A DNA stretch of 63,598 nucleotides, filler included, from Collodictyon triciliatum (lineage: Eukaryota): NCBI GenBank assembly GCA_043381765.1. It is 6 parts of 6 records of this genome, joined end to end, with 100 filler letters (N's around TTAATTAATTAA, not from the genome) between each part and the next. Parts side by side here need not be neighbours in the genome. Positions count along the whole stretch, not along the records: positions 41,489 to 54,511 come from JBHJMP010000289.1; 5 more parts are not named here. One strand, given 5' to 3'. The position numbers were made by a program, and so were the translations under genes. Numbering within the stretch: the first letter of the stretch is position 1; the number at the start of each line of letters is the position of its first letter. The notes under the pieces are model-generated. The model saw only the letters and a list, made by a program, of their open reading frames with translations, was not told where the DNA came from and made no database searches. This document shows, piece after piece, positions 4,033 through 54,611 of this stretch.

Positions 4033-4266
4033 CCACCGCATATCTAATAAACCTTGCTTGTGACAAAGTAGCCACCAAACAAAGGATATCCATCCATTCA
4101 TACCAAAGGTGGAAATTACGGCGCGCACCTTAAGCCACTCCACTCTTCCATGTCTGCTTTGCAGATGAATCACGCTTCGCTGCGGACGTCGCATAGTTGA
4201 TTCGACAACAAAGCCTTGTGGGGCGACAGGGAGGTATGCAGCGGGCCACTGACAAAAGACACTAGG

Positions 4267-7200
4267 ATGGCCACATTCGGAGAAGTCGATCTTGTAGAGT
4301 CGCTAGAGGAAAGTGACGATGGCTACCCTGGGGAGGATGAAGAAATCCATGAGGAAGAGGAAGAGGAAGAGGAAGAGGAAGAGGAAGAGGAAGAGGAAGA
4401 GGAAGAGGAAGAGGAAGAGGAAGAGGAAGAGGAAGAGGAAGAAGACCTATGCTCCGATTCAGACAGCGAACAAGACAGGAGTGACTTCATTGAGAGTCAA
4501 GAGGACGATCAAGAGCATCGGCCACATGCGAATGGACGCAGTCGCTTTGTGATCAAAAAACCACTGCAGAGGCCCAACAAAGACAAAAGGAAACACATAG
4601 GGATATTACCGCAAGGAGGAGACTGGCAGGACATTCAACCTGTTCAATATTCTTTTCGAATCCGTCGCAAGGAACTTAGAATCTCACCCATTCGCGCTTT
4701 TCGCAGCCATATTGTGCGGCTCCGGAGCAACGCAGGGTTGAATGCAGAACTTGATCCAACCTCCATTCCGCTTTCGAAAAAGCTGAGGCGAAGCGTATGC
4801 AAACTTTACAGACTAACGGGATCGTTCTTTTGGAATCGCAGGGAGATTGATGTGGGTGGATGGGGACTGCATCAAATGCACCCAGACTTGCTTGCTCTTA
4901 TCCTCGCATCAGGACCCGAAACTCTGATGATGCGCGAAAACCACCTCGAGCAGTTTCATCTTGCAAGAGCCATCCACAGGCTCGGTCGTCCTCCACGTGC
5001 ATTTGAAGGTCTGATGGGAATAGGTTCCTTCGTAAACGAGCTTCACAGACAAGAAAGCGATGTTCAGCCGTCTTTGCACGAAACTATATATCTTGCAGAC
5101 AATATCGATTCCAGGGTCTCTGCGCTGCTTGCCACTTTGCAAACGCTGGATGTGTCCCACAATAATCTGGGGACATTGCCATCTGCCATCAGCAGACTGG
5201 AGCAGCTTTTCTCTTTGAATGCATCACACAACCACTTGACACGAATAGCCTCTGGTGCGCTCTGGCTCCCGAATTTAGTTGCTCTTGATCTTTCACACAA
5301 CAACCTAGTCGCCTTTGGTGATGTTCCAAAAACCAGTCTTAATATTGCTCTCCTCCCAAGGCATGGGACACTGTCTTCTATAGACTTGCAGGATGAAGAC
5401 CTGCTCGGGTCACATCACAGTATTAAAAACGTTGTAGAAGAGGAATCCTCTATATTTCTTGGAAAGCTCAATTCATTAGACCTTTCGCACAATCAAATCA
5501 CTCTGTTATCCGGAGCGTTGTTGTTCCCAGGGCTGCAATCACTGGATTTATCTTATAATAGATTCACATCCTTCGCTCTTCGAAAAGATATGCAGTTCCC
5601 GGGGTTACACTCTCTAAAATTGTCGCACAATCAATTGATCTCATTCGAATTGCCCCATAACCCAGAATCTACTCATAGTATTCAAAACCTACAAGTTCTG
5701 GACCTTTCCTACAATCTATTGTCCTTTTTGCCCCTCTCCTTTCCTTTTGTAGTGCCCAGACTCCGCTCTCTGAATCTTTCACACAATCAGATTTCTTACA
5801 TGCCGCCAGCTTTCGCTGCCCTGTCATACACCCTGGCAGATTTGGACCTTTCATACAATCATATTTCAGTTCAATCAATCGCTCTGGCCCGTCTCCAGTC
5901 CTTCTCCTTGGCCAAAAATGGACTCGCCACTCTGTCATCCACATTTGCATTTTTCCTTCCAAACTTGCATAGCCTGGATCTCTCAGACAACCAAATATCA
6001 GCACTACCTCATGATTTGCGGTCATTTTCACATATCCATACGCTTAATTTGTCTCGCAACTGCCTCTCGGGGTTACCACCGTCTTTTGCTGCATTGGCTC
6101 GATCTTTGAGCGCGCTGGACCTGTCCCACAATCGCCTTGCTAACCTCCCTGACTTTTTCTCTTCTCTCCACGCCGTGCAACGTCTTATCCTTAAAAGCAA
6201 CTTCTTTTCAGGATTTCCAGTTCCTATTTGGCATATGGGGAAACTCAAGCAATTATCGTTGGGAAATAACTCGATGACCGAGCTACCTGAACCCTCATGG
6301 ACACAATCCATGACCTCAACATACTCTGCCTGGCCATCAATAGAGTATTTGGACCTATCCAACAATCATCTCGTGAATATTCCAACTGCGTTATTGGTTT
6401 CCTTACCATCTCTAGTTTTCGTAGACCTTTCGGGAAACAAGATTGTGGCAGATCCATATGCATATGTATCGCTTGGCATACTACCAAGCATCCAGACGGT
6501 ATTGCTCTGTCGTAATCAAGGACTTCCTCCCATAGAATTGCCAACTAATTTGCGTGAACTGGATATATCGCACACCATGTCATCAGACCTGCCCATTGGT
6601 CTTTCGAAGTGCTCTCTTTTAACGTCACTTTCAGCCAGCAAAAATTCGCTTCTCTCTATACCCGCATGGTTTTCGTCCCTGACCAAGGTTCATGAAATAG
6701 ATTTCTCAGAAAACAAGCTCTCTTCCATACCCCAGGACGTTTGTCATTTTTGGGGAAATCTCAAGTTGCTTAATCTATCTGACAATCTATTTTCTCATCT
6801 ACCAACTGCTGTATCCTTATTGACAGGAATAACGCACCTGAATTTATCCGGAAATCAGCTGTCCACTTTTGCGCCTGACAGCGATTCAGTCAACATCGCA
6901 CTTGATAGACTTGCCAGTTTGCAGTTGGCCAGAAATTCATTCCAATCTATTCCCTCTGCCATCACATGCGTTCCAAACATTTTGGACATTAATCTGATGT
7001 CAAACTTTATTTCATCGATTACAAAAGACATATACAAACTCAGTGCTGTAGAGTCTTTGAATTTATCCTCAAATTTGCTATCTGTACTGCCCGTGACTTT
7101 TGGTCATTTGGTATCCTTGAAGAGACTATATTTATCTTCAAACAAGTTTAATCGAATTCCTGAGCCGATATCCACCTTGGTAAATCTCGAAACTCTTCAC

Positions 7201-10200
7201 CTTCATGATAACCAAATATCCATACTTCCTACACATTGGCAGAATCATTCTGGTCTTCTAGATCTCACTCTTCACAACAACCAAATTTCGTGGCTACCTC
7301 CGTCATTCTCTGGGCTCTCCTCTTTACAAAATCTATGCATTGCGAATAATCCTGTGGGATATCTGAATCCTCTGTTATCTTTGTGGAGCCTCACCAGTTT
7401 GGATTCTAACAGCGCTGAAATCGGGCCCATCCACTTCACACTACCAAAGGCATACCCAATCAAACAACTACTATTATCCAACAACAACATTTCGTCCATC
7501 CCACCATCTATTAGTTTACTCAGCTCCTTGCAAGTGATGGACATTTCAAAAAACCTTTTGTCTGTGCTACCAGCAGAGGTAGAGAGTTTATCTCACCTTA
7601 GTGTCTTGAATTGTGCTGGAAACGTCATATCTGCTATCGACTTTTCTTTTAAAAATTTCCACCACCTTCGAACGTTATTGCTGGGAGATACAGAGAATGG
7701 AAACTTGCTCACAAGCATCCCATTATCACTAACATACTGCACATCATTGCTCATTCTGGATTGTTCGTTCAACAAGCTATCTTTCTTGCCTGAAGAAATC
7801 AGTGCCTGCTTGAATTTGCAGGAGCTGATACTAGAGAAAAACCAATTCAGTGGGCTACCAAATACGTTGTCTATGCTAAGTTGTCTTTCTAGCCTTAGGA
7901 TTAGAGGAAATCCGATGCCGCATGCTACTCAAAGAGTGTATGAATCCCTTACAAACAAGGACCGAAGTCGCTTGAACCTGTCTCAATTGGACTCGGCAGT
8001 TCGTCTGGAGCATATTCAGCATGCGTTGCAACTAGTAGATGTTATAACTTTGGATTTGTCATCTAATCGCCTGACGGAATTGCCACCATGGATTAGTACA
8101 CTATCAAATCTGAAGCATCTCATTTTAGACTATAATTTACTGCAAGTTTTGCCGCCCTGGATTTGTTCCATGAAGCTCCATCAATTATCTCTGAAGGGGA
8201 TTCTTCAAATGAGCCCGAAGCTGTCATCTAGCTATGCATCCATCATCCCACTAAAGAGTATGAACACTATGGAGAAGACATTAAAAATCCTCCAAGTGTT
8301 GAGAATTGTGGAGTCACCAAAGGACAAAATCTTTGAAATCTACGAAGAATATGCATGCCAGCAGCTCAATCAGCTATCACAGTCGTACACAATCAACGGA
8401 GAGGTTTATGATGCCTCCTTGACAACAGTCGAGCTGGCGTGCAGTTCGAGTGCAAGTCAGTTTCTTTCTCAAGATCAAATGCAGGATTCTGTTTGGAGGC
8501 GCTGGACAAACTATGCAAACCCTCGCCGATACTTGCGTGAAAAGTACAACCGGAGCAACTGGTGGAGTGATGGGTTTACGAAAGGCACGTCTACTTTTCT
8601 AGAGTCGTGTTACCACGAGCTTTACCCATTTATCATCTCTCCGTTGGCAAAATATCTAACGTCAATTGCTGCCTTTACTCTATACCTTTTAGTGCTGATT
8701 TCAGTTATTATGGCCAGCAACCAAACATCAAATACTCCAACATATGAGTACTCAAAAGCGCTTCACAGCGCGTTTGATCCATCTATGGTGCGAAGCACAG
8801 CCGATTATTGGGCTTATATAGAAAACGTATTTATCCCATTCACTTTTTCTCATCAACACTACCTGAACTCAAACTCGAGCGGCTTATGGCACGGTGGAAA
8901 TTCCTTCTTCCGACTGCAAAGTCCAGTCAATCAAAGGCAAATCAGGAGTTGGAAGAAGAACTGTGTTTATCATTATCATTTATACCATCAGCCGAATTAT
9001 GATGTGGATTCAAATAACACAGCCCCTGTAATTCAATACTGTGTCCCTCCATATTCCTTCAATACAGAAGAGTTTGAATCTTTTGGGACAAACAACACAT
9101 TTGAATGGACATCCCATAATCCAAACTTTAATTCCAAGATACAAGGTCACTCTGGGACTTGGTACTCGTCAGCCGGATACATTATTCACATGGGATGCAC
9201 TGAACATGAGGCACATGAAAAGAATCAAGCACTGAAAAGAGAAGGGTGGATTGATGAGCAAACGCGTGCTGTCTTTGTTGAATTTGTTGTTTCTAATCAA
9301 AACCTACGAGTTGTCTCGCAAGTACTTGTCTTTTTCGAGTTCAATCCAAGCGGGTTACTATATCCAAATTTACGAATCACAACAATTCCTATCTCATGTT
9401 TATCGGGTGGTTATTCGTCAACTCTATCTTACTACTGGGTTCTTTCGTTGTTTGCGATGGCTTTCATCTCCCACGAGGTGTCAAAGTACGAACTTGAGCG
9501 TAAGAAATATTGGAAACAAAAATGGAACTATTTAGATTTGGGGATAATCTCTTTACTATGCGTATTGATTTTCAACCAGTTTGGTATTTTCCTTTTTGCG
9601 CCGCATGTTGTAATTGCCCCAGACGTCGACGGAAGCCTTCCAATTGACGTACAGGAAGCATCTTTCGGAACATCTGTCGCTTTGCACAATATTCAAAGGG
9701 AGGTGTCTGGAGTACTCGTGCTGTTTTCGTTTGCAAAATTCTTTTACTATTCACGACTCCAGAGCATCCTGGGCCCATTACAGATATGCGTATGGGAAGT
9801 ATTAAGTCGCTCATTTCGCTACTTTTATGTGGTATCTATCTTCTTTGCAGCCTTTAGTGTCAGTTTATATGCGGCTTTTGGAGATGCACTTGCAGAGTTT
9901 TCATCGCTTCCTCAATCCATAAACAGCTTGACCCAGCTGATGTTTGGTGTCTTTGACTTTGAAGTCATACATCAGGATGGAACCATACTTGGGTCTCTTT
10001 TCTTTTATGTCTCTCTCACAACTTTTGGTCTGCTATTAATTAATCTCTTGATTGCCATGATGACTGGGCTGTATGCCGATGCCAATCGAGCTGCCCATCA
10101 GAAGCATGCGTTGTTGGTAGCTTCAGCGACGTTGGACATGATGAACTATCCAACGCCACCACCTTTCAATCTGTTCTCTGGGACATGGACTCTTTTGAAA

Positions 10201-10263
10201 AAGAACCTATTCCCACTTATTGATATGGAGGGGGCTGATGAGGTGAGAAAAAGAAATGCATAA
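4267..10263 (+). CDS. Poly-Glu N-terminus + roughly 40 leucine-rich repeats + polycystin-2/TRPP-like 6TM cation channel (single ~6 kb exon; probable donor at 10243)
   Basis: 2015-aa ORF, ATG at 4267. LxxLDLSxNxL repeats over ~5130-8200. TOP-domain motifs RQIRS...C, YSSAGY, LKREGWIDEQTRAVFVEF; WNYLDL; pore FSSLPQSINSLTQLMFGVFDF; S6 LLINLLIAMM. Confidence 0.92.
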   Translation: MATFGEVDLVESLEESDDGYPGEDEEIHEEEEEEEEEEEEEEEEEEEEEEEEEEEEEEEDLCSDSDSEQDRSDFIESQEDDQEHRPHANGRSRFVIKKPLQRPNKDKRKHIGILPQGGDWQDIQPVQYSFRIRRKELRISPIRAFRSHIVRLRSNAGLNAELDPTSIPLSKKLRRSVCKLYRLTGSFFWNRREIDVGGWGLHQMHPDLLALILASGPETLMMRENHLEQFHLARAIHRLGRPPRAFEGLMGIGSFVNELHRQESDVQPSLHETIYLADNIDSRVSALLATLQTLDVSHNNLGTLPSAISRLEQLFSLNASHNHLTRIASGALWLPNLVALDLSHNNLVAFGDVPKTSLNIALLPRHGTLSSIDLQDEDLLGSHHSIKNVVEEESSIFLGKLNSLDLSHNQITLLSGALLFPGLQSLDLSYNRFTSFALRKDMQFPGLHSLKLSHNQLISFELPHNPESTHSIQNLQVLDLSYNLLSFLPLSFPFVVPRLRSLNLSHNQISYMPPAFAALSYTLADLDLSYNHISVQSIALARLQSFSLAKNGLATLSSTFAFFLPNLHSLDLSDNQISALPHDLRSFSHIHTLNLSRNCLSGLPPSFAALARSLSALDLSHNRLANLPDFFSSLHAVQRLILKSNFFSGFPVPIWHMGKLKQLSLGNNSMTELPEPSWTQSMTSTYSAWPSIEYLDLSNNHLVNIPTALLVSLPSLVFVDLSGNKIVADPYAYVSLGILPSIQTVLLCRNQGLPPIELPTNLRELDISHTMSSDLPIGLSKCSLLTSLSASKNSLLSIPAWFSSLTKVHEIDFSENKLSSIPQDVCHFWGNLKLLNLSDNLFSHLPTAVSLLTGITHLNLSGNQLSTFAPDSDSVNIALDRLASLQLARNSFQSIPSAITCVPNILDINLMSNFISSITKDIYKLSAVESLNLSSNLLSVLPVTFGHLVSLKRLYLSSNKFNRIPEPISTLVNLETLHLHDNQISILPTHWQNHSGLLDLTLHNNQISWLPPSFSGLSSLQNLCIANNPVGYLNPLLSLWSLTSLDSNSAEIGPIHFTLPKAYPIKQLLLSNNNISSIPPSISLLSSLQVMDISKNLLSVLPAEVESLSHLSVLNCAGNVISAIDFSFKNFHHLRTLLLGDTENGNLLTSIPLSLTYCTSLLILDCSFNKLSFLPEEISACLNLQELILEKNQFSGLPNTLSMLSCLSSLRIRGNPMPHATQRVYESLTNKDRSRLNLSQLDSAVRLEHIQHALQLVDVITLDLSSNRLTELPPWISTLSNLKHLILDYNLLQVLPPWICSMKLHQLSLKGILQMSPKLSSSYASIIPLKSMNTMEKTLKILQVLRIVESPKDKIFEIYEEYACQQLNQLSQSYTINGEVYDASLTTVELACSSSASQFLSQDQMQDSVWRRWTNYANPRRYLREKYNRSNWWSDGFTKGTSTFLESCYHELYPFIISPLAKYLTSIAAFTLYLLVLISVIMASNQTSNTPTYEYSKALHSAFDPSMVRSTADYWAYIENVFIPFTFSHQHYLNSNSSGLWHGGNSFFRLQSPVNQRQIRSWKKNCVYHYHLYHQPNYDVDSNNTAPVIQYCVPPYSFNTEEFESFGTNNTFEWTSHNPNFNSKIQGHSGTWYSSAGYIIHMGCTEHEAHEKNQALKREGWIDEQTRAVFVEFVVSNQNLRVVSQVLVFFEFNPSGLLYPNLRITTIPISCLSGGYSSTLSYYWVLSLFAMAFISHEVSKYELERKKYWKQKWNYLDLGIISLLCVLIFNQFGIFLFAPHVVIAPDVDGSLPIDVQEASFGTSVALHNIQREVSGVLVLFSFAKFFYYSRLQSILGPLQICVWEVLSRSFRYFYVVSIFFAAFSVSLYAAFGDALAEFSSLPQSINSLTQLMFGVFDFEVIHQDGTILGSLFFYVSLTTFGLLLINLLIAMMTGLYADANRAAHQKHALLVASATLDMMNYPTPPPFNLFSGTWTLLKKNLFPLIDMEGADEVRKRNA

Positions 10264-41388: not shown

Positions 41389-41488
41389 NNNNNNNNNNNN
41401 NNNNNNNNNNNNNNNNNNNNNNNNNNNNNNNNTTAATTAATTAANNNNNNNNNNNNNNNNNNNNNNNNNNNNNNNNNNNNNNNNNNNN
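41389..41488. other. Artificial assembly linker
   Basis: 44N-TTAATTAATTAA-44N. Confidence 0.95.
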
Positions 41489-41497
41489 ATAATAATC

Positions 41498-41559
<62 letters not shown>

Positions 41560-41571
<12 letters not shown>

Positions 41572-42284
41572 GGGGAACAAAATATGACCTACGAGCTCTA
41601 GCCATTAACCCACGGACACCAAGATAAGTATGAATATAGTGCTCAGTATTAGTTTCTCTGTTTCTTTTCTATATTTTCTTCATCTCTTTTTTCTTTTTTC
41701 TTTTTTCTTTTTCTTTTTTCTTTTTCTTTTTTCTTTTTCTTTTTTTTCCGGTCTCATCCAGCCTGTAAACGGATAAAATTCATTACAAATGTTGTGACGA
41801 ACTTGGGTTTATCCCTTTCAAAGGACACAACACTTTTCATACAACGAAAGTGTACCCATATATAGCGGTTTATGGCACAGACAACCATCGAATTAAATCT
41901 AGATTGACAAGAGCAGGAGCTTTGATGAATCCAAACAATCTGAATAATATAACAATATAATTAGTATACATAATAAGGGTTATAAATACATAATAATCTC
42001 AACCCACTCATATAATCGATTTATATTTTATTTTCATTTATGCGATATTATCATTAAAATTCAAAAAATACAAACACGCCCTTGCCTTGGCCCAGATAGA
42101 ACATACCCTATAAACCTGCCACCACACATGGATTTCAAAAAAAGCATACTATCCACACTTGTGGCGGCAATCATGTTGTTTGAGGCCGATATGTTGACTT
42201 TCAGTCGCAATGGCTCTACGGCCATCCTTTCGAACTCGCCGAGTCAGCTCTCAGCGTTTTGTCTCAAATCACTTCTAAAAAAAA
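41560..42284. repeat. Dispersed ~720 bp repeat, copy B, abutting a (TAA)n tract on the left and ~160 bp upstream of the Fanzor remnant
   Basis: Colinear with 19228-19944; roughly 80% identical by eye. Confidence 0.9.
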
Positions 42285-42443
42285 TCGTGCGTCAGTTTGC
42301 CACAATGCGCAAATTTTGAAAATCTCAGTAGATGCTTAATTTCACCTGAATTGATATTGTGCAGTTTTTTTATTGTTACATTGACTGATTGACTAATTGA
42401 CTAAAGTTTTATTAAATTAAAAAAGTAAAGCGAAAACTTTCAG

Positions 42444-44345
42444 GTGAAGAAAAGGAAACGTCTTGAGTCTGAGAATCTAAAGTCTGTAAAACCAGACCGT
42501 CGAAACGTGAAAACATCTCTAAAGTCGATTGTAAAGAATGCGAATGACTATGACGAAATCAACGATACGGTTTTATTGTGTCATAATTTGGTTACCGACA
42601 CTTTTCTATTTGCAAGATGTTACATATTGAAATCAATAAAACTTCCAACAATCGATGAAATGTTTTTTTTTTTATTTTTATTTTTGGATTTAAAGACAGT
42701 CAGAATAGTTTCACAAGATAGCCCCACAAGATTAAGAAAAAAAAAACCAGATGTGAGAGATGACATGATGACTTTTTATCTCAATGATGTTCGATTCCTT
42801 TTGTCCCGATAAGAACGCTTTCCGTTGGTTGGACTGTCTCATTATTACCGTACTTGGCGAAGCAAACGTTAACAGCTTATCATAATAACCTTAAGGAACA
42901 TTTTATAAAGAGGTTACTGCGCTTTATAAATCAAACAGTACCTAAATATGAGATTATTACGGAACCTATTAAAAGGCAGAGTTAAGAAAGATAAAAAAAA
43001 TCATCTTCATGAAACTCGAAATATCGGAACAATAGAGAGAATGGGCTATAACGCATTTATCATATCATTCCCAGCGATATTGTAAAATGGTATCAAATAA
43101 ATCGTCAAAGTCAATCCAAATAAGTACATCCCATGTCTGATTTACATGAATCGCATTTTGAGGACATTGGAACCAAACTGTTTCAACCAATCTCTATAAG
43201 AACTAACAATATACCGTGTCATATTACTCTAGATACCGTATGTTTGATAGATCTATTAGTATTGTCTAGAAAAAAAAATCATTACTGAAGAATATATCAG
43301 GATGCAAAAAGACCCTATGGGATGACTTCTTTGAAATGAAGAAGATGGTCTTTCATCAAATAGACTACAATTTCTAATACATTATACAATCAGACGGCTT
43401 GGCGGTGTCATTATTGTTTGGAAAGAAAGGTATTTCAAATTCAAAATCTAATTTAATCAAAAAACCCAAGAAAACGTTTATATAGATGACCTTTCCGAAG
43501 ACCAGTTATCTTTATTAGTGACAAAAAAATAACAGTTGGAGTGGACGCAGGCAAGTTTAATTTGGTTTACATGGTGGATGAGACAGGTAAGAAATTATGT
43601 TACACGACACACCAAACAAGACATGATAGCAAATCTCTTCAAAATCACAAAATACTCTTGCGCGAGAAAAAAAGAAAAGTACAATGCTTCAGGGATATGT
43701 ATGACAACAGATTTACAAAGTGCTATTTCTTTTGGTCACATGACTTTTCAAGAGAATCGACAGTTTGAGACATCAAGAGTATCTTAAATCGATTTAGAGA
43801 CAGAACTGAGTAAACATAATTCATGCACGGTCGATTATGAATAATTTCGAAAATAAATATCTATGAAACTAAGATATCAGATAGAATTTTCCAGATTTTA
43901 TGAACACGTGACTTTTTCGAAAGATGATATGGAGCCAGTATGTTAATACAAAAAGAAGTGAGCTATTGTTTATGGACTTAATCGAAAAGGCATTTGGCAA
44001 GGATGTTGTACTGGCGTATGGAGACTGGAGCAGAAAATGTCCGATGAAACATTTTATGCCATCAATCGAAAGAGGATTACGAAAAATACTAACTAACCGT
44101 TTTGAACAACTTAGTGTAGATGAATTTAAAACCTCCAAGATGTGCTGCAACTGCGAAAAAGAACTGGATTATATGACACTGAAAGGAAATTCAAAAAAAA
44201 AGTACATAGATGTCTCATATGTAAAGAATGCAATCGCTCAGAAAGCAAACAAAGTGTATTCTTGACAAGGGACTTTAACAGCGCTAATAATATACTCGGG
44301 AAAGTTTTTTTTAATCTTTTAAAAAATGCCTACACCTCGCTTTAA
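42444..44345 (+). pseudogene. Fanzor1 (eukaryotic TnpB-like RNA-guided RuvC nuclease), disrupted by several frameshifts and stops
   Basis: Ordered motifs across frames: VKTSLKSIVK..INDTV..HNLV..TFLF.R.YIL..LPTID; LPYLAKQTLTAYHNNLKEHFIKRLLRFIN (~42845); KLFQPISIRTNNIPCHITLDT (~43175); IQSDGLAVSLLF; RuvC-I VGVDAGKFNLVYM (D 43544); LETELSKHNS; FRKMIWSQYVN..SE; AYGDWS..MKHF.P...GLRK; RuvC-II VDEFKTSKMCCNC (E 44122); CLICKEC; RuvC-III TRDFNSANNIL (D 44271). Confidence 0.9.
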
Positions 44346-44352
44346 AAAAATA

Positions 44353-44614
44353 GGCTGTTGGGTCTTTCCTGGCAGCCTTCACCACTACACGACCATAGTG
44401 AAAAAAGTGGTGAGACCTTGGATGCTAGCACACCAGGTTTACCAATCGAAAGATTCGTATACTCCTTCGAGTCATAATACAGCAAAGGATTTAAATAGGA
44501 AGGAAATTCGCCGAAAAGCCCCGACAACCGGCTACTACCTAATGCAGGATAAGACTCAGTCCTCAGTCTTGCGTCGCAATTGGCTTTGATCAAAGCTGAT
44601 CGCCTCTGTGGGCG
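44353..44614 (+). ncRNA. Candidate Fanzor omega-RNA scaffold / element right end
   Basis: Begins 7 nt after the apparent stop. Consecutive stems at 44353-44377, 44379-44413, 44414-44439 and AATC-GAAA-GATT (44444-44455); further stems to 44614. The position matches known Fanzor omega-RNAs; boundaries are uncertain. Confidence 0.55.
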
Positions 44615-45898
44615 CATATTGTGAAATTCGGTTTGCCTTTAACCTTCGCATGCGTCTCGCTTTCCCTCTGTTTTCCCATTTTTCTTTTGAGTGGGCGAAA
44701 CAATTGCAAAATGCCGCGGGGTTTTCAGCAACTGCATTTCATTCTGAGCGAGATGTTGATAAGTTTGATAAGGTTGGATCGTTCTGATGGCTGTGGAGAC
44801 AGAAATTCACTCGCCGCGGTTTAATGATTCTCTCACTCATTTAATACCGGCTAGGGAAAAGGATAATGAAATTGATAAGTAGAAAAAGAAAGAAAGAATA
44901 ATACAAGAAAAAAAAGAAAGATAAAAGGATCAGATATGAACAGCAGAATATATCGGAAAAAAGCATGCTTGCTCTCCATATCTTAATTCTTATTGAAAGG
45001 AATGGCGTTTCTAATTGGAAGACCGTATTAAACAGAAACGTAGATTCTTTGTCCCTGCATTTGCGTCGTTATCATTTCGAGTTAATGTGCAAAATTATTA
45101 CTTATCTATGAGAAAAGAAAGGAAATATAAAAGAAATACTAATAAATCTAATAATACTACTAATCATAACAACAATTATGATGACAACACCAAAACCAAA
45201 GTGAAAATGAAACGCCTGGCTCTATATACTCGATTGATGCCAACTACAGTGCCATGCTCTTACCCAGATACGTCAAAGTATCCAACAGTTTGTCGTTTGA
45301 TCCCAAACCATTTTTTGCATCCAAATGATTTCGTATAATAATGTCCTTGTGTATGCTTCTTACACACCTGTGTCTGAATGTTTTGTTACCGGGCATTACA
45401 ACTTGTTCTCAAAAAGAAGAAAGAAAAGGAAAGAAAAAAAGCCTTAGCCTACGCGATATCCTCTGTTATATCACCCACGCCTTCCTCCGTCATCACCCCC
45501 AAATCGAGCTTTTCTAATTAGCGAAGCATACCAGCGACCCCAACTGAGCTTTACCCACGTGACATGAGCATCAATTTATTTCGAAGTGTATTTGGATTGC
45601 ATAAGCTCCATGAAAAAAGCCCTCGATCAATCCCTCTCTATCTTAGCTGAAGCGGCCAGCGAACGAAGCAAACTAGTAGTCGTTCATCTCTCCCTCGATA
45701 CTGGAGTGAAATGATATATATGAATTCTTCTAATGTTGTTTCCTTCGTTTCTTTCGTTCTCTAAATCTCCCTCTCGAACCAACCAGCCTTTCCATTATCT
45801 CACTCAGTTGGGTCTCCCTTTATTTCTTAAACGTTTCTTTCATCTGTCCCCAAGGCTCTGTCTTTGGTTCAACCACCACGTTGCCGAGCTTGCCATCC

Positions 45899-46004
<106 letters not shown>

Positions 46005-46469
46005 AAAAGTAATAATAATAATTACCACACACTCACAGCCTTCCACCATTATACCCGAACACAAGAGTATTTAAAATCACCAGTAGTTATTTCCCCCTTT
46101 TCATGATTATCATTCTGAAATCTTTCTTTCATTATTCCCTTTTTTTTTTATCTTTATTTATTTCAGCCAACGCCCTCCCTTTTCATAACGTTGGGCGCCA
46201 GTAATTCGATCAGAATTCCGCCAAACGATTCGTCCTGATCATGCAAAAAAACAAAGCAAGGGAAAAAACAAAAGAAAAACAAACCGACAAGCAGACGCTT
46301 TTCTCTCTTTTTCTCTCTTTCTCTTTCTCTTTCTCTTTCTCTTTCTCTTTCTCTTTCTCTTTCATTCATCACTACTTTTCTCGGGCAAACAAAAACAAAG
46401 AACCACACACAGAGGCCATTCAAGTAACAAACAAAGGCGATCAGAAAAGAAAAGAAAAGAAAAGAAAAG

Positions 46470-46500
<31 letters not shown>

Positions 46501-46565
46501 GAAAGACATCAGACATACACGCCAACAAACTAACACACAAGAGAGTAGCAGAGCCCAACAGACTC

Positions 46566-49500
46566 ATGCAGACGCGATCCCACAAGAGCCCCGGCTCCGA
46601 GGCTGCCGAAATGCCGCGCCCGATTCGCCGCTCGTCTCGCTCCACGCCTGACAGTTCGCAGTCGCCCACACAGCAGAGTCAAAGCTCGCCGCAATCCGCG
46701 GGCCGAGCAAAGAGTTCGCCAAGTCCCGCGCCTGCCGCTGCAAAGAACAAGGTGTCCAAAGCCGACAAAGACGAGGTCGCGCCCGCAAAGCCGCACACAG
46801 CAGAAAGTGTCCCTGTGGCCACTCCGGTAAAGGCTGCGGACACCCGGTCAAAGCGAATCCTTTCCCTGCGCAAACCTGCTGCTGAGGCCGCGCCACCTGC
46901 GAAGGCCCAATCTGTATCTTTGGCAAAGAACGTGCAGCTGAAGGTATCGGGCGTGTCTCGAGGCGGCGATTTGCCGAGGAAGAGAAAGAAAGGAAGTGGC
47001 ACTGCCGAGGACGTGGATGACGAGGATGCCCGGGAGGAAGAGGAAGAGAACGCAGATGGCGATGGCGATGGCGATGATGGTGAGGGTGGCGACAATAATG
47101 ACGTGGAGGAGGACGAGGATGATGAGAATGAGGATGAGGATGAAGAGAATAATGATGACGACGGGGAAGATAACGAGGAACGTTCAAGTGTCGAGGAGGA
47201 CCAAGGATCTGGAGAGGATGCTGATACAATGCAACTCTCTTCACAACGGAACACACCCCAAGTCAAGATCAAGCTGCGGGGGAGCTTACTTCCACCGCAT
47301 AGTAAGTTATTTTAAGCAAGGTGTTTAAAAGGAACTCGTCTATGCTTATGATTATTCTTGTCTCTATGTCCGTTGCGACAACATAAATATTTTTAGAATA
47401 TTGAAGAGTTAGTAGAAAAAACAGAACAAAACAAAAAACGCTCGCTTATATTTTTGATTGTTTTTCACAGTTTCCCCCTATATTATGTATTTTGATTTGT
47501 GAACGTGCGGGATTTCATCCAATTGCATACAAGGATGTAGATTTTAACTTATATATATCTCATTTTCTACCCAAGAATCACGCACATCATCACACGCAGT
47601 AACTACAAACAGCCGAGATCCTGATACTCAATCTAGTAACAAGTATTTTTTCCTGAAATATTTCTTCAGCAATTTTTCCCCATATAATATACAGCGGCAC
47701 CATAAATATACGATTTATAAACTTAACATACAACTCTATACCTTTCCCCGCGCAGTTTATCGTCGCTCAAACGTATAAAGATGAGACTCGGCGCAAATAA
47801 AAGGCAGGCTGAGCACGAGGATGCAAACGAGGCTGGTATCGAAGATGCCCCCGAGCCAGTTGAACACAAAGCGGATGCCTCGTCCGATTCCCTCAACGCC
47901 AAGAAATTTCCAAAGATTGTCGCCCGCAGAAGTTCTGGGCTTGCTCAAGGGCCCATGTCGCCACCCAACTCTGAGTCGCTGCATAATACAGATGTATCAT
48001 CTTCGCTACAAACTTCATCAGCAAAAAAAATCATCAAGGCTCGCCTGGGCTCAAGCAAGATTCTGAATGATAGTGTTGAAGAAGGCTCTTCAAAGAAAGA
48101 ATCCCTTGACAGCTCCACAGGTGACAATGCCAATGATGATGTGATTGGTTCAAGCCAGCGAAAAGGTTACTTTCCTATTAGATGAGATCGATATACCCAA
48201 CACACTATAAATTCATATTTACCTGTATATGTTGCCATACTTGGTTTAATAAGGACATTATTTATTATTTATTGTGACTAAGGTTCAGGTAATCTCACAT
48301 GTTGTCTTACATACACGTCACTCACTTGTATATGATCATCCAGGAAAGCTGTCTCGTAATGAAAAGAATCGGACCATTAAACACGAGGATGCACAGCCTC
48401 AGACACCACCCCCTAACGACGATTCTCTGGAAACCCCATCAAAACGAGTTCGTCGGACAAGAACACCAGCCGATATCCCGGAAAGGCGCCAGAGTATCAC
48501 CCGACCTGCTAGCGTGTCGAGAAAACCGAGTGACATGGATACTTTGCAAACCCCAAAGGCAAAGCCGAAGGCACGAGCCACACCCCTTTCGCGGGGCAGA
48601 TATTCGTCTGGTGAGTTTGAGAATCCAGACTTGGTGATCGACTCCGAGGATAGCGAAGATGACTCCGATGAAGACTCCGATGAAGATGATGACTCTGAAA
48701 ACGACGACGGGGCCGAAAAAGATGCTGATGTGGATGACCCTCGCACTGGACGTCGGCTGCATGCATCTGTCGGTTCAAATAAAGCACGTCGCCTCAAAGC
48801 AAAGAGGCCTAGTGCAAAGAAAGGATCAGACGCAGACCAAGGCTCCGGTAAAAAAGGAGGCTCGGAATTGAACTCTGAGAGCGATGATTTTTCGGAAGAT
48901 GATGGTAATGTGGATATATGATGCATGCGCATTCCGTTCTCAATTTAAAATCCAAGCCATATTTATTCATCTCTGTCAAATATTTCTTGCCTATCGACAA
49001 TGCATTTATTTAAACATTACGATATATCTGATGTCATTGGCAGAAATATAATTTTGCGAGATCTCTTTATCATTTTTCATCCGGACTAATCAAACCAAAA
49101 AATATCAATTTTTTCCTCCTTTGTTTTGTATGTGTATTATACAGATAGCGGAACTGAAAGAAAAACAGATAAGCAAGGAAAGAGACGCGATTCATCATCT
49201 TCTCCGAAACTTGGTAAAATTTGTTCATGTAGCTTCGAGCTTAACAGTTACTTTATCTCCTGTGTTGATGTTATTAGGATAATTTTCAATCTGGACTGTA
49301 TTGTGATTAGTGGTGGAATAATAGTATGAATACATAATAAGCAAAAGTAGGAATTATTAGTAAATTATACTACATCAATAATAACCACCATGTCGGAATG
49401 TAGCCCGCATGACTGGTCCAAAGCCAAGGTGTCTCCCTGACTTGTACAGAGCTGTGGTCCGTTTCGGTAAAAGGTTGGTATTGACATGTTTTACTCTTTC

Positions 49501-54511: not shown

Positions 54512-54611
54512 NNNNNNNNNNNNNNNNNNNNNNNNNNNNNNNNNNNNNNNNNNNNTTAATTAATTAANNNNNNNNNNNNNNNNNNNNNNNNNNNNNNNNN
54601 NNNNNNNNNNN
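54512..54611. other. Artificial assembly linker
   Basis: 44N-TTAATTAATTAA-44N. Confidence 0.95.

What the first reader, a model, noticed from the sequence alone, without database searches (positions are those of the whole stretch)
42444..44345. Decayed Fanzor1 RNA-guided nuclease with all RuvC acidic residues still readable
Seen: a near full-length (~600 codon) series of Fanzor1 motifs spread over several frames, with D43544, E44122 and D44271, two CxxC pairs and an N-terminal KKRKR. Several frameshifts fall in A/T homopolymers, but in-frame stops also occur. Known: Fanzors are transposon-borne eukaryotic OMEGA nucleases guided by a 3' omega-RNA. Inference: this genome hosts, or hosted, a Fanzor family; intact copies or a consensus could give a new programmable nuclease.
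Basis: partly seen in the sequence, partly recalled or inferred. Interest (0 to 1): 0.85.

Follow-up and report, generated by a model that had tools for sequence, protein, structure and literature searches.

The report
Dead copy of a Fanzor1 transposon nuclease
This stretch is a broken, non-functional copy of a Fanzor1 RNA-guided nuclease gene from a repeated mobile element in a eukaryote, which makes it an ordinary fossil of a well-known family.

Summary
Window 42444-44369 (+) is a full-length pseudogene of a Fanzor1 protein.

- **Alignment.** A frameshift-aware alignment to the closest intact relative, P0002 (648 aa, metagenomic), gives 379 of 630 identical codons. It needs 11 frameshifts and 7 internal in-frame stops, and the start codon reads GTG.
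- **Family.** P0002 and a 5-protein profile hit only solved Fanzor1 structures: SpuFz1 at 4e-47 end to end, PpFz1 and GtFz1.
- **Active site.** SpuFz1 D383/E541/D606 map to window GAC 43544, GAA 44122 and GAC 44271. The zinc-finger cysteines and KKRKR are also readable.
- **Repeat family.** The 5' region has a second partial copy at 19228-19943. Two public runs each hold about 400 contigs that are 80-99% alike. Most of those contigs lack this copy's stops, and part of them lack several of its frameshifts.
- **Relatives.** The window copy groups with four intact-looking metagenomic proteins. That group is sister to a clade that includes giant-virus contigs.
- **Not shown.** No omega-RNA and no transposon ends could be shown for the window copy. 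No intact copy from the same genome could be shown either, because no genome is held.

Verdict: a new, dead member of a known kind, of low to moderate interest.

The parts
42444..44369 (+). Fanzor1 pseudogene, aligned to residues 1-635 of intact relative P0002. It has 11 frameshifts and 7 internal stops, plus a stop at 44343. By homology the original ORF would have ended near 44408.
   Evidence: Frameshift-aware alignment; tblastn.
42444..42461 (+). Former start codon, now GTG, followed by KKRKR, a basic NLS-like N-terminus that P0002 shares as MKKRKR.
   Evidence: NLS function is inferred from passages of PMC10530073.
43544..43546 (+). RuvC-I aspartate (GAC) in VGVDAGKFN. It is equivalent to SpuFz1 D383. 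The neighbouring family-invariant Pro is replaced by Ala.
44020..44022 (+). Glycine of AYGDWS at the canonical RuvC-II strand, the 'rearranged' site described for Fanzors.
   Evidence: Read from the sequence. The rearrangement is described in passages of PMC10530073. The assignment of this strand is inferred.
44122..44124 (+). Alternative RuvC-II glutamate (GAA) in SVDEFKTSK, equivalent to SpuFz1 E541.
44143..44231 (+). Zinc-finger cysteines: CxxC at 44143/44152 and CxxCxxC at 44211/44220/44229. A frameshift near 44194 interrupts the segment.
   Evidence: Weak Cas12f1-like_TNB Pfam hit.
44271..44273 (+). RuvC-III aspartate (GAC) in TRDFNSANNIL, equivalent to SpuFz1 D606.
41559..42443 (+). Non-coding 5' part of the same repeat unit. 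It is 81.5% identical to 19228-19943, and contigs in other runs join it to the ORF. The left end is not visible because the contig starts at 41489 inside a (TAA)n run.
44346..44515 (+). 3' tail of the ORF plus about 100 nt downstream. This is where an omega-RNA scaffold and right end would be expected. It folds into a row of hairpins (z -2.68). Related contigs stop covering the window between about 44400 and 44500.
   Evidence: Not confirmed by the covariance model. Inferred only.
19228..19943 (+). Second, partial copy of the element's 5' region, cut on both sides by assembly gaps.
41389..41488 (.). Artificial contig linker (44 N, TTAATTAATTAA, 44 N). Sequence to its left is not necessarily adjacent in the genome.

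Best explanation
Window 42444-44369 is a dead copy of the nuclease gene of a Fanzor1-bearing DNA transposon that is or was present in many copies in a eukaryotic genome.

The ancestral protein was about 650 aa. By homology it was an omega-RNA-guided double-strand DNA endonuclease with these parts:
- an N-terminal basic nuclear-import signal;
- REC/WED regions;
- a split RuvC domain with the Fanzor-type rearranged triad (D, alternative E, D);
- a zinc finger between RuvC-II and RuvC-III.

Its guide RNA would be transcribed from the 3' end of the gene and the transposon's right end.

This copy cannot make the protein. The start codon is lost, and 11 frameshifts and 7 internal stops interrupt the frame. 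Its long terminal branch points to neutral decay after insertion.

**Shown:** homology, the lesions, the catalytic positions and repeat-family membership. **Inferred:** RNA guidance, the role in transposon maintenance and the omega-RNA position.
For: **Alignment and lesions.** Frameshift-aware alignment: 379 of 630 codons identical to P0002, with 11 frameshifts and 7 internal stops.

**Family.**
- P0002 against the PDB: GtFz1 2.1e-28, PpFz1 2.7e-24, SpuFz1 3.7e-23, and nothing else at E <= 0.01.
- Profile A1: PpFz1 2e-49, SpuFz1 4e-47 (profile positions 4-607 against chain residues 398-1027), GtFz1 3.1e-39.

**Catalytic residues.** SpuFz1 D383, N385, E541 and D606 coordinate Mg (PMC10432273 passages). 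D383, E541 and D606 map to window codons 43544, 44122 and 44271.

**Repeat family.**
- Contigs laid on the stretch: 401 in X2, 417 in X6, 354 in X3 and 6 in X1.
- Bins with cover: 27-28 of 30 bins in X2, X3 and X6; all four runs read zero in 44500-44707.

**The lesions are private to this copy.**
- At 4 of the 7 internal stops the printed table shows most or nearly all related contigs with a sense codon: 42810 T>G, 43100 A>T, 43375 T>A, 43786 A>T.
- At 5 of the 11 frameshift sites a share of contigs carries the compensating indel: 42842, 43155, 43268/43270, 43667, 43913.

**Other copies.** A second partial copy lies in the window at 81.5% identity over 736 bp.

**Tree.** The window copy groups with P0002, P0013, P0009 and P0001 (SH-aLRT 100). 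Its terminal branch is 0.49, against 0.02-0.17 for the other four.

**Constraint.** The window keeps 165 of 209 positions that are invariant in A1. The more distant intact members L004 and L005 keep 187 and 176.

**Host.** Other contigs of the window carry eukaryote-type genes: LRR plus polycystin channel, SPRY, WD40/Sel1.
Against: - **Pfam is weak.** Run on the fragments alone it stays below threshold. Even the intact relatives score below Pfam's cut-off for Cas12f1-like_TNB. Family assignment therefore rests on PDB and profile homology.
- **No omega-RNA shown.** A covariance model of the related clade's 3' RNA gives no hit at the window's 3' end. A search restricted to that region scores 2.5 bits, E 0.73.
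- **No ends or transposase.** No inverted repeats, target-site duplication or transposase were found. 'Transposon' therefore rests on repetition and family knowledge.
- **The runs may be another organism.** Those with related contigs hold at most 0.11 of the stretch's 31-mers. They may come from a related organism and not the window's own.
- **Biased control.** The invariant-position control is biased for L001 and P0012, which are near-identical to a member of A1.
Confidence: 0.9

Rival explanations
1. The gene is intact in the organism, and the breaks are sequencing or assembly errors (homopolymer miscounts) or unrecognised introns.
For: 6 of 11 frameshifts lie next to A or T runs of 5-9 bases. 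The assembly is a gapped draft joined with artificial linkers. Fanzor genes are reported to have captured introns (PMC10530073 abstract passage).
Against: - 7 internal stops arise by substitution inside well-aligned coding blocks.
- 5 of 11 frameshifts are not at homopolymers.
- The start codon reads GTG.
- The alignment has no inserted block that could be an intron: only 6 inserted and 5 deleted codons.
- The terminal branch is long.
- Family-invariant residues such as the Pro of DPGK are replaced.
Confidence: 0.04
2. The host uses a variant genetic code in which TAA/TAG are sense codons, so the 'stops' are not stops.
For: 6 of the 7 internal stops are TAA and one is TAG; none is TGA.
Against: - The stops align to different residues of P0002, including Q, Y, L and K, so no single reading fits.
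- Where printed, other family copies carry GAA, TAT, AAA and TTA at those places.
- Long neighbouring ORFs of 2020 and 1576 aa are open under the standard code.
- The 11 frameshifts remain unexplained.
Confidence: 0.01
3. The segment is part of an integrated giant-virus fragment (an endogenous viral element) or a viral contaminant, not a host transposon.
For: The next-closest clade (47-48% identity to P0002) sits on contigs that IMG/VR lists as giant-virus MAGs. These contigs reach 255 kb, are dense in ORFs, have 27-35% GC, and carry topoisomerase IA, ribonucleotide reductase and helicase genes next to the Fanzor.
Against: - The rest of the Fanzor contig (41489-54511) shows no viral hallmark. 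Three ORFs tested there (46428-47315, 47727-48185, 48253-48921) had no Pfam family.
- About 400 diverged contigs per run, and a second copy on another scaffold, fit transposon amplification and not one insertion.
- The window's own subclade was not found on any of the 160 fetched loci. The best protein identity of its members to any locus was 47-63%.
Confidence: 0.05

Closest known systems
Spizellomyces punctatus Fanzor1 (SpuFz1; PDB 8GKH, 9CEU-9CEZ)
   Same: It matches the profile of the window's relatives over its whole length (E 4e-47). It has the same D / alternative E / D triad and the same cysteine-rich segment between RuvC-II and III. The locus is a single ORF of about 2 kb, and the genome holds many full, partial and ORF-less copies (PMC10432273 section 7).
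   Different: Sequence identity is low and only detectable with HMMs. SpuFz1 N385 is Gly in this subfamily. SpuFz1 has defined 30-nt inverted repeats and a 75-nt omega-RNA scaffold downstream of the stop; neither could be shown here. The window copy is broken.
Guillardia theta and Parasitella parasitica Fanzor1 (PDB 9CER-9CET, 9CF0-9CF3)
   Same: GtFz1 is the best single-sequence PDB hit of P0002 (2.1e-28) and PpFz1 the best profile hit (2e-49). In GtFz1 the omega-RNA overlaps the last 17 codons, which is the arrangement inferred here.
   Different: They align in two or three separate stretches with large insertions. There is no evidence of a shared omega-RNA.
Metagenomic protein P0002 and its close kin P0013, P0009 and P0001
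   Same: Closest relatives of the window copy: 60% identity over 630 codons and the same clade with SH-aLRT 100. P0002 is an intact 648-aa ORF with all motifs.
   Different: They are intact or partial ORFs with short branches, whereas the window copy is decayed.
Giant-virus-borne Fanzor1 clade (L001-L160; IMG/VR GVMAG contigs)
   Same: It has the same protein architecture, and the subgroup with L001-L004 is the sister group of the window's subclade (SH-aLRT 92). P0002 is 38-47% identical to these loci.
   Different: Their ORFs are intact: 78 of the 80 metagenome loci have a complete 576-641 aa ORF. In 74 of the 80 (71 distinct sequences), a short conserved stretch follows the stop and ends in ...GGTGTAA, with strong covariation. 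A model of that RNA does not match the window.
Fanzor2 / prokaryotic TnpB / Cas12f
   Same: Same superfamily: RuvC plus a zinc-ribbon TNB domain. Pfam OrfB_IS605 and Cas12f1-like_TNB give weak hits.
   Different: No Fanzor2, TnpB or Cas12 chain reached E <= 0.01 with P0002, or E <= 0.001 with the profile. At about 650 aa with a large N-terminal REC-like region, the protein is of Fanzor1 type.

Membership tests
Fanzor1 | Full-length sequence homology to experimentally characterised Fanzor1 proteins | tested here: met
   The window copy is 60% identical to P0002 over 630 codons. P0002 and profile A1 hit only Fanzor1 chains. SpuFz1 matches end to end at E 4e-47.
Fanzor1 | RuvC triad with the rearranged RuvC-II: inert residue at the canonical site and an alternative Glu downstream | tested here: met
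   D 43544, G 44020 (AYGDWS), E 44122 and D 44271. The three acidic residues are equivalent to SpuFz1 D383/E541/D606.
Fanzor1 | Zinc-finger / TNB segment between RuvC-II and RuvC-III | tested here: met
   Cysteines at 44143, 44152, 44211, 44220 and 44229. Pfam Cas12f1-like_TNB is only sub-threshold: E 0.027 for the fragment and 4e-4 to 1e-3 for relatives.
Fanzor1 | Open reading frame able to yield the nuclease | tested here: not met
   The start codon reads GTG, and there are 11 frameshifts and 7 internal stops. It is a pseudogene member, not a functional one.
Fanzor1 | Omega-RNA encoded at the 3' end of the ORF and the transposon right end | tested here: inconclusive
   - The 3' region folds with z -2.68.
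- Model R1 of the related clade finds nothing there. The restricted search gives 2.5 bits, E 0.73.
- Rfam gave no hit at E <= 1.
- No RNA run was available.
Fanzor1 | Residence in a transposon with defined ends (inverted repeats, TSD or TAM) | tested here: inconclusive
   The element is repeated. However, the contig starts inside it, and no convincing inverted repeat spans it.
Fanzor1 | N-terminal nuclear localisation signal | not testable with these tools
   KKRKR at 42447-42461 is read from the sequence. Function is inferred from PMC10530073 passages.
Fanzor1 | Eukaryotic or eukaryotic-virus host | tested here: met
   Window ORFs carry LRR plus polycystin channel, SPRY and WD40/Sel1 domains. 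They lie on other contigs of the same concatenated record.
Fanzor2 / TnpB | Closer homology to Fanzor2 or TnpB than to Fanzor1 | tested here: not met
   No Fanzor2, TnpB or Cas12 chain is among the PDB hits at E <= 0.01 or E <= 0.001.

The most novel reading that the evidence does not exclude
The window copy is a fossil of a high-copy Fanzor1 transposon lineage that is still active in this organism or a close relative. That lineage is sister to a Fanzor1 clade carried by freshwater and marine giant viruses, which would imply exchange of the element between virus and host. Intact members such as P0002-like proteins would use an omega-RNA different from the viral clade's conserved scaffold ending in GGTGTAA. 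That would give a distinct, compact (about 650 aa) programmable nuclease subfamily.
Probability: 0.3. Interest if true: 0.5.

Novelty: new member of a known kind. Interest (0 to 1): 0.27.

Why it matters
A single decayed Fanzor1 copy adds little. Fanzor1 is already described in fungi, protists, arthropods, plants and giant viruses (PMC10432273 section 5). The homology search here returned 3147 cluster representatives.

The modest value lies in three points:
- The locus marks an organism with a large Fanzor1 repeat family.
- Its subclade has intact natural members that could be tested directly, so no consensus needs to be rebuilt.
- Its nearest neighbours are giant-virus copies with a sharply defined, covarying 3' RNA. 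That offers a clean system for comparing viral and cellular Fanzor1 guides.

Tried and rejected
- **Whole-genome search for intact copies.** No genome is held for this window.
- **Source reads.** No listed run holds more than 0.11 of the stretch's words, so the homopolymer-error test on source reads could not be done. No RNA holder was listed. X2 and X6 are only guessed to be RNA, so nothing can be said on expression.
- **Rfam on 41000-45500.** 0 matches at E <= 1.
- **Inverted repeats over 41500-44900.** 44 pairs were found, all low-complexity or internal, and none is a plausible pair of termini.
- **Covariance model R1** (built from 71 viral-clade 3' regions):
  - On the whole window, the best of 18 matches is 60310-60499 (-) at E 0.063, taken as chance, and none lies at the Fanzor 3' end.
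  - Restricted to 44280-44600, it scores 2.5 bits, E 0.73.
  - By eye the window seems to share a first hairpin and a TTTAAAT box with that clade. This is not statistically supported, so I drop it.
- **Folding.** Window 44230-44600 as a whole gives z -1.27, not significant. The 5' conserved block 42060-42290 gives z -2.18, unexplained.
- **Near-length protein search.** It was meant to find near-identical intact fragments. It gave only 3 hits, at best 78% identity.
- **Variant genetic code and intron readings.** Both rejected; see the rival explanations.
- **First tree run.** It did not finish. It was rerun with a simpler model.
Full report
**What is in the sequence**

Stop-to-stop ORFs on the + strand between 42429 and 44345 carry recognisable Fanzor/TnpB motifs in three frames: VGVDAGKFN, AYGDWS, SVDEFKTSKMCCNC, RCLICKEC and TRDFNSANNIL.

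A search with the 117-aa piece 43912-44265 found full-length relatives of 621-648 aa. I wrote a frameshift-aware dynamic-programming alignment of the closest one, P0002 (648 aa), against window 42300-44500.
- It runs from 42444 to 44369 and covers P0002 residues 1-635.
- 379 of 630 aligned codons are identical.
- It needs 11 frameshifts and passes 7 internal in-frame stops (six TAA, one TAG).
- A further stop lies at 44343, about 20 codons before P0002's own end.

The first codon reads GTG where P0002 has ATG. tblastn of four intact relatives against the whole window hits only this locus.

**What family it belongs to**

Pfam is of little help.
- 2 of the 7 frame pieces give sub-threshold hits to OrfB_IS605 and Cas12f1-like_TNB.
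- 3 of the 5 intact relatives scanned give sub-threshold Cas12f1-like_TNB hits, and the other 2 give nothing.
- The collection's precomputed label PF26935.1 was not returned by the local Pfam copy. I cannot name it.

The PDB searches are clear.
- P0002 alone hits only three distinct chains, all Fanzor1: GtFz1 2.1e-28, PpFz1 2.7e-24, SpuFz1 3.7e-23.
- A profile of five relatives (A1) hits the same three. The SpuFz1 match is collinear over profile positions 4-607, at E 4e-47.
- No Fanzor2, TnpB or Cas12 chain appears.

The Nature 2023 paper names D383, N385, E541 and D606 as the Mg-coordinating residues of SpuFz1 (PMC10432273, passages). The MBP-fusion chain is offset by 394 residues. With that offset, D383, E541 and D606 align with P0002 D364, E555 and D604, and so with the window's three acidic codons.

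The Gly of AYGDWS, together with the downstream Glu, fits the 'rearranged RuvC-II' described for Fanzors (PMC10530073, passages). That strand assignment is my inference.

**Is it really dead?**

- **Homopolymers.** 6 of 11 frameshifts touch A or T runs of 5-9 bases and 5 of 11 do not.
- **Stops.** They align to different residues of P0002, including Q, Y, L and K. A recoded stop cannot explain them.
- **Introns.** The alignment contains no inserted block that could be an intron.
- **Branch length.** In a maximum-likelihood tree of 53 rows the window copy has a terminal branch of 0.49. Its four nearest relatives have 0.02-0.17.
  - Rows included: the window read-through with X at every break, P0001-P0004, P0006, P0009, P0013-P0045, and 13 metagenome ORFs.
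  - Rows left out: P0005, P0007, P0008, P0010-P0012, P0046-P0160 and the other 147 loci.
- **Invariant positions.** The window keeps 165 of 209 positions that are invariant in A1, although it is the closest sequence to P0002. The more distant intact members L004 and L005 keep 187 and 176. This control is biased for L001 and P0012, which nearly equal a member of A1.

**It belongs to a repeat family**

Within the window, 41559-42284 (upstream of the ORF) matches 19228-19943 at 81.5% over 736 bp.

No run holds more than 0.11 of the stretch's 31-mers. Four runs were laid at 80% likeness or more.

| Run | Contigs laid | 99% or more | 95-99% | 90-95% | under 90% |
|---|---|---|---|---|---|
| X2 | 401 | 29 | 104 | 125 | 143 |
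| X6 | 417 | 35 | 90 | 159 | 133 |
| X3 | 354 | 15 | 33 | 75 | 231 |
| X1 | 6 | 1 | 0 | 1 | 4 |

- Cover spans 41900 to about 44400-44500 and is zero in 44500-44707 in all four runs.
- Contigs join 42138-42254/42284 to 42420-42539, so the 5' region and the ORF belong to one unit.
- Where the truncated tables show it, most or nearly all related contigs have sense codons at 4 of the 7 internal stops: 42810 T>G, 43100 A>T, 43375 T>A, 43786 A>T.
- A share of contigs carries the compensating indel at 5 of the 11 frameshift sites: 42842, 43155, 43268/43270, 43667, 43913.
- The lesions are therefore private to this copy or to a minority of copies.

These runs are coded organisms and metagenomes. They are not shown to be the window's source.

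Two short NCBI-derived fragments (P0010 and P0011, on contigs of about 530 bp) are 78% identical to the window piece.

**Limits set by the assembly**

The window is a concatenation. Linkers of 44 N, TTAATTAATTAA and 44 N occur at 19945-20044, 34827-34926, 41389-41488, 54512-54611 and 61869-61968.
- The Fanzor contig is 41489-54511 and begins inside a (TAA)n run. The left end of the element cannot be seen.
- The ORF to the left of the linker (40852-41088) is not necessarily a neighbour.
- No inverted repeats that could be termini were found.
- No transposase lies in the visible element.

**Relatives elsewhere**

- **Family size.** The representative library holds 3147 clusters at E <= 1e-3 and 537 at E <= 1e-30.
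- **Numbers of loci.** Pattern scans found 366 related stretches in metagenome contigs and 261 in IMG/VR. 80 loci were kept from each.
- **Intact ORFs.** 78 of the 80 metagenome loci have complete ORFs of 576-641 aa. P0002 is 37-47% identical to the loci.
- **Viral setting.** Many IMG/VR records are labelled as giant-virus MAGs; L081 is the same 254,533-bp contig as L002. The flanks of 5 loci examined are ORF-dense (76-91%) with 27-35% GC. In 4 of them, flanking ORFs include topoisomerase IA, ribonucleotide reductase small chain and a DEAD helicase.
- **Tree position.** The window's subclade (window, P0002, P0013, P0009, P0001; SH-aLRT 100) is sister, at SH-aLRT 92, to the group with L001-L004, P0003, P0004 and P0006. 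No member of the window's subclade matched any of the 160 loci above 47-63% identity. The tree is midpoint-rooted for drawing only, so no direction of transfer is claimed.

**Omega-RNA**

In the viral clade a short conserved stretch follows the stop and ends 44-167 nt downstream (about 80 nt in most loci) in ...TTTAAATGnnnAAAGGTGTAA. Similarity stops abruptly after it.
- 74 of the 80 loci have this motif, giving 71 distinct sequences. In 4 loci it was not found, and 2 have no stop inside the locus.
- Three helices covary strongly: 93.7% of cells are paired, against 47-60% when partners are slid. 134 cells have changes on both sides, against 5-24. 0 of 500 shuffles reach the observed score.
- This looks like the clade's omega-RNA scaffold and right end, by analogy with SpuFz1 and GtFz1.

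The model built from it (R1) does not detect the window's 3' region. Window 44346-44515 folds into a row of hairpins with z -2.68; 2 of 200 shuffles fold as well. That is suggestive only. The window's omega-RNA and right end remain inferred from position.

**Verdict**

This is a decayed Fanzor1 gene in a repeated element of a eukaryote, which makes it a new, dead member of a well-known and very large family.

Interest is low to moderate.

**Papers: what I saw**
- PMC10432273: passages and sections 5 and 7.
- PMC10530073: passages.
- PMC11423790, PMC11832414 and PMC3627910: search listing and start of the abstract only.
- Supplementary files were not consulted.

Noticed in passing
window 19945-20044, 34827-34926, 41389-41488, 54512-54611, 61869-61968: 100-bp linkers of 44 N, TTAATTAATTAA (a stop in every frame) and 44 N. 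The window is an artificial concatenation of contigs or scaffolds, so gene order across these points carries no information.
   Followed up: partly
L001-L080 3' flanks (for example L006:6798-6959); alignment A3: The giant-virus-associated Fanzor1 clade has a short conserved stretch after the stop (ending about 80 nt downstream in most loci). It has three strongly covarying helices and a sharp end at ...GGTGTAA, and is probably its omega-RNA scaffold and right end. In L001-L004 it overlaps the last codons of the ORF.
   Followed up: partly
L002:3638-4678 (-): A DDE_3 (Tc1/mariner-like) transposase ORF lies directly upstream of the Fanzor ORF on a 254-kb contig that IMG/VR lists as a giant-virus MAG. 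It may be the partner transposase of that copy.
   Followed up: no
window 42060-42290: This is the most deeply covered and best conserved block of the element's 5' non-coding region. It is relatively GC-rich and folds with z -2.18. Its role (promoter, left-end sequence or RNA) is unknown.
   Followed up: partly
window 41225-41388: A 14-bp minisatellite (ACATAGGACATAAT-like units) runs into the contig end just left of the linker.
   Followed up: no
window 4201-10263 (+) and 28883-33613 (+): Two very long uninterrupted ORFs. One (2020 aa) combines LRR repeats with a polycystin-type cation channel. The other (1576 aa) combines pentapeptide repeats, WD40 and many Sel1 repeats. They point to an intron-poor eukaryote.
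   Followed up: partly
window 60310-60499 (-): Best whole-window hit of the viral-clade RNA model R1 (23.3 bits, E 0.063). It lies in AT-rich sequence next to a 629-N gap and is probably chance.
   Followed up: no
whole window: Very frequent microsatellites and low-complexity runs (GT/CA, AGAAA-type, TAA, poly-A/T). Many 100-N scaffold gaps are placed inside them.
   Followed up: no
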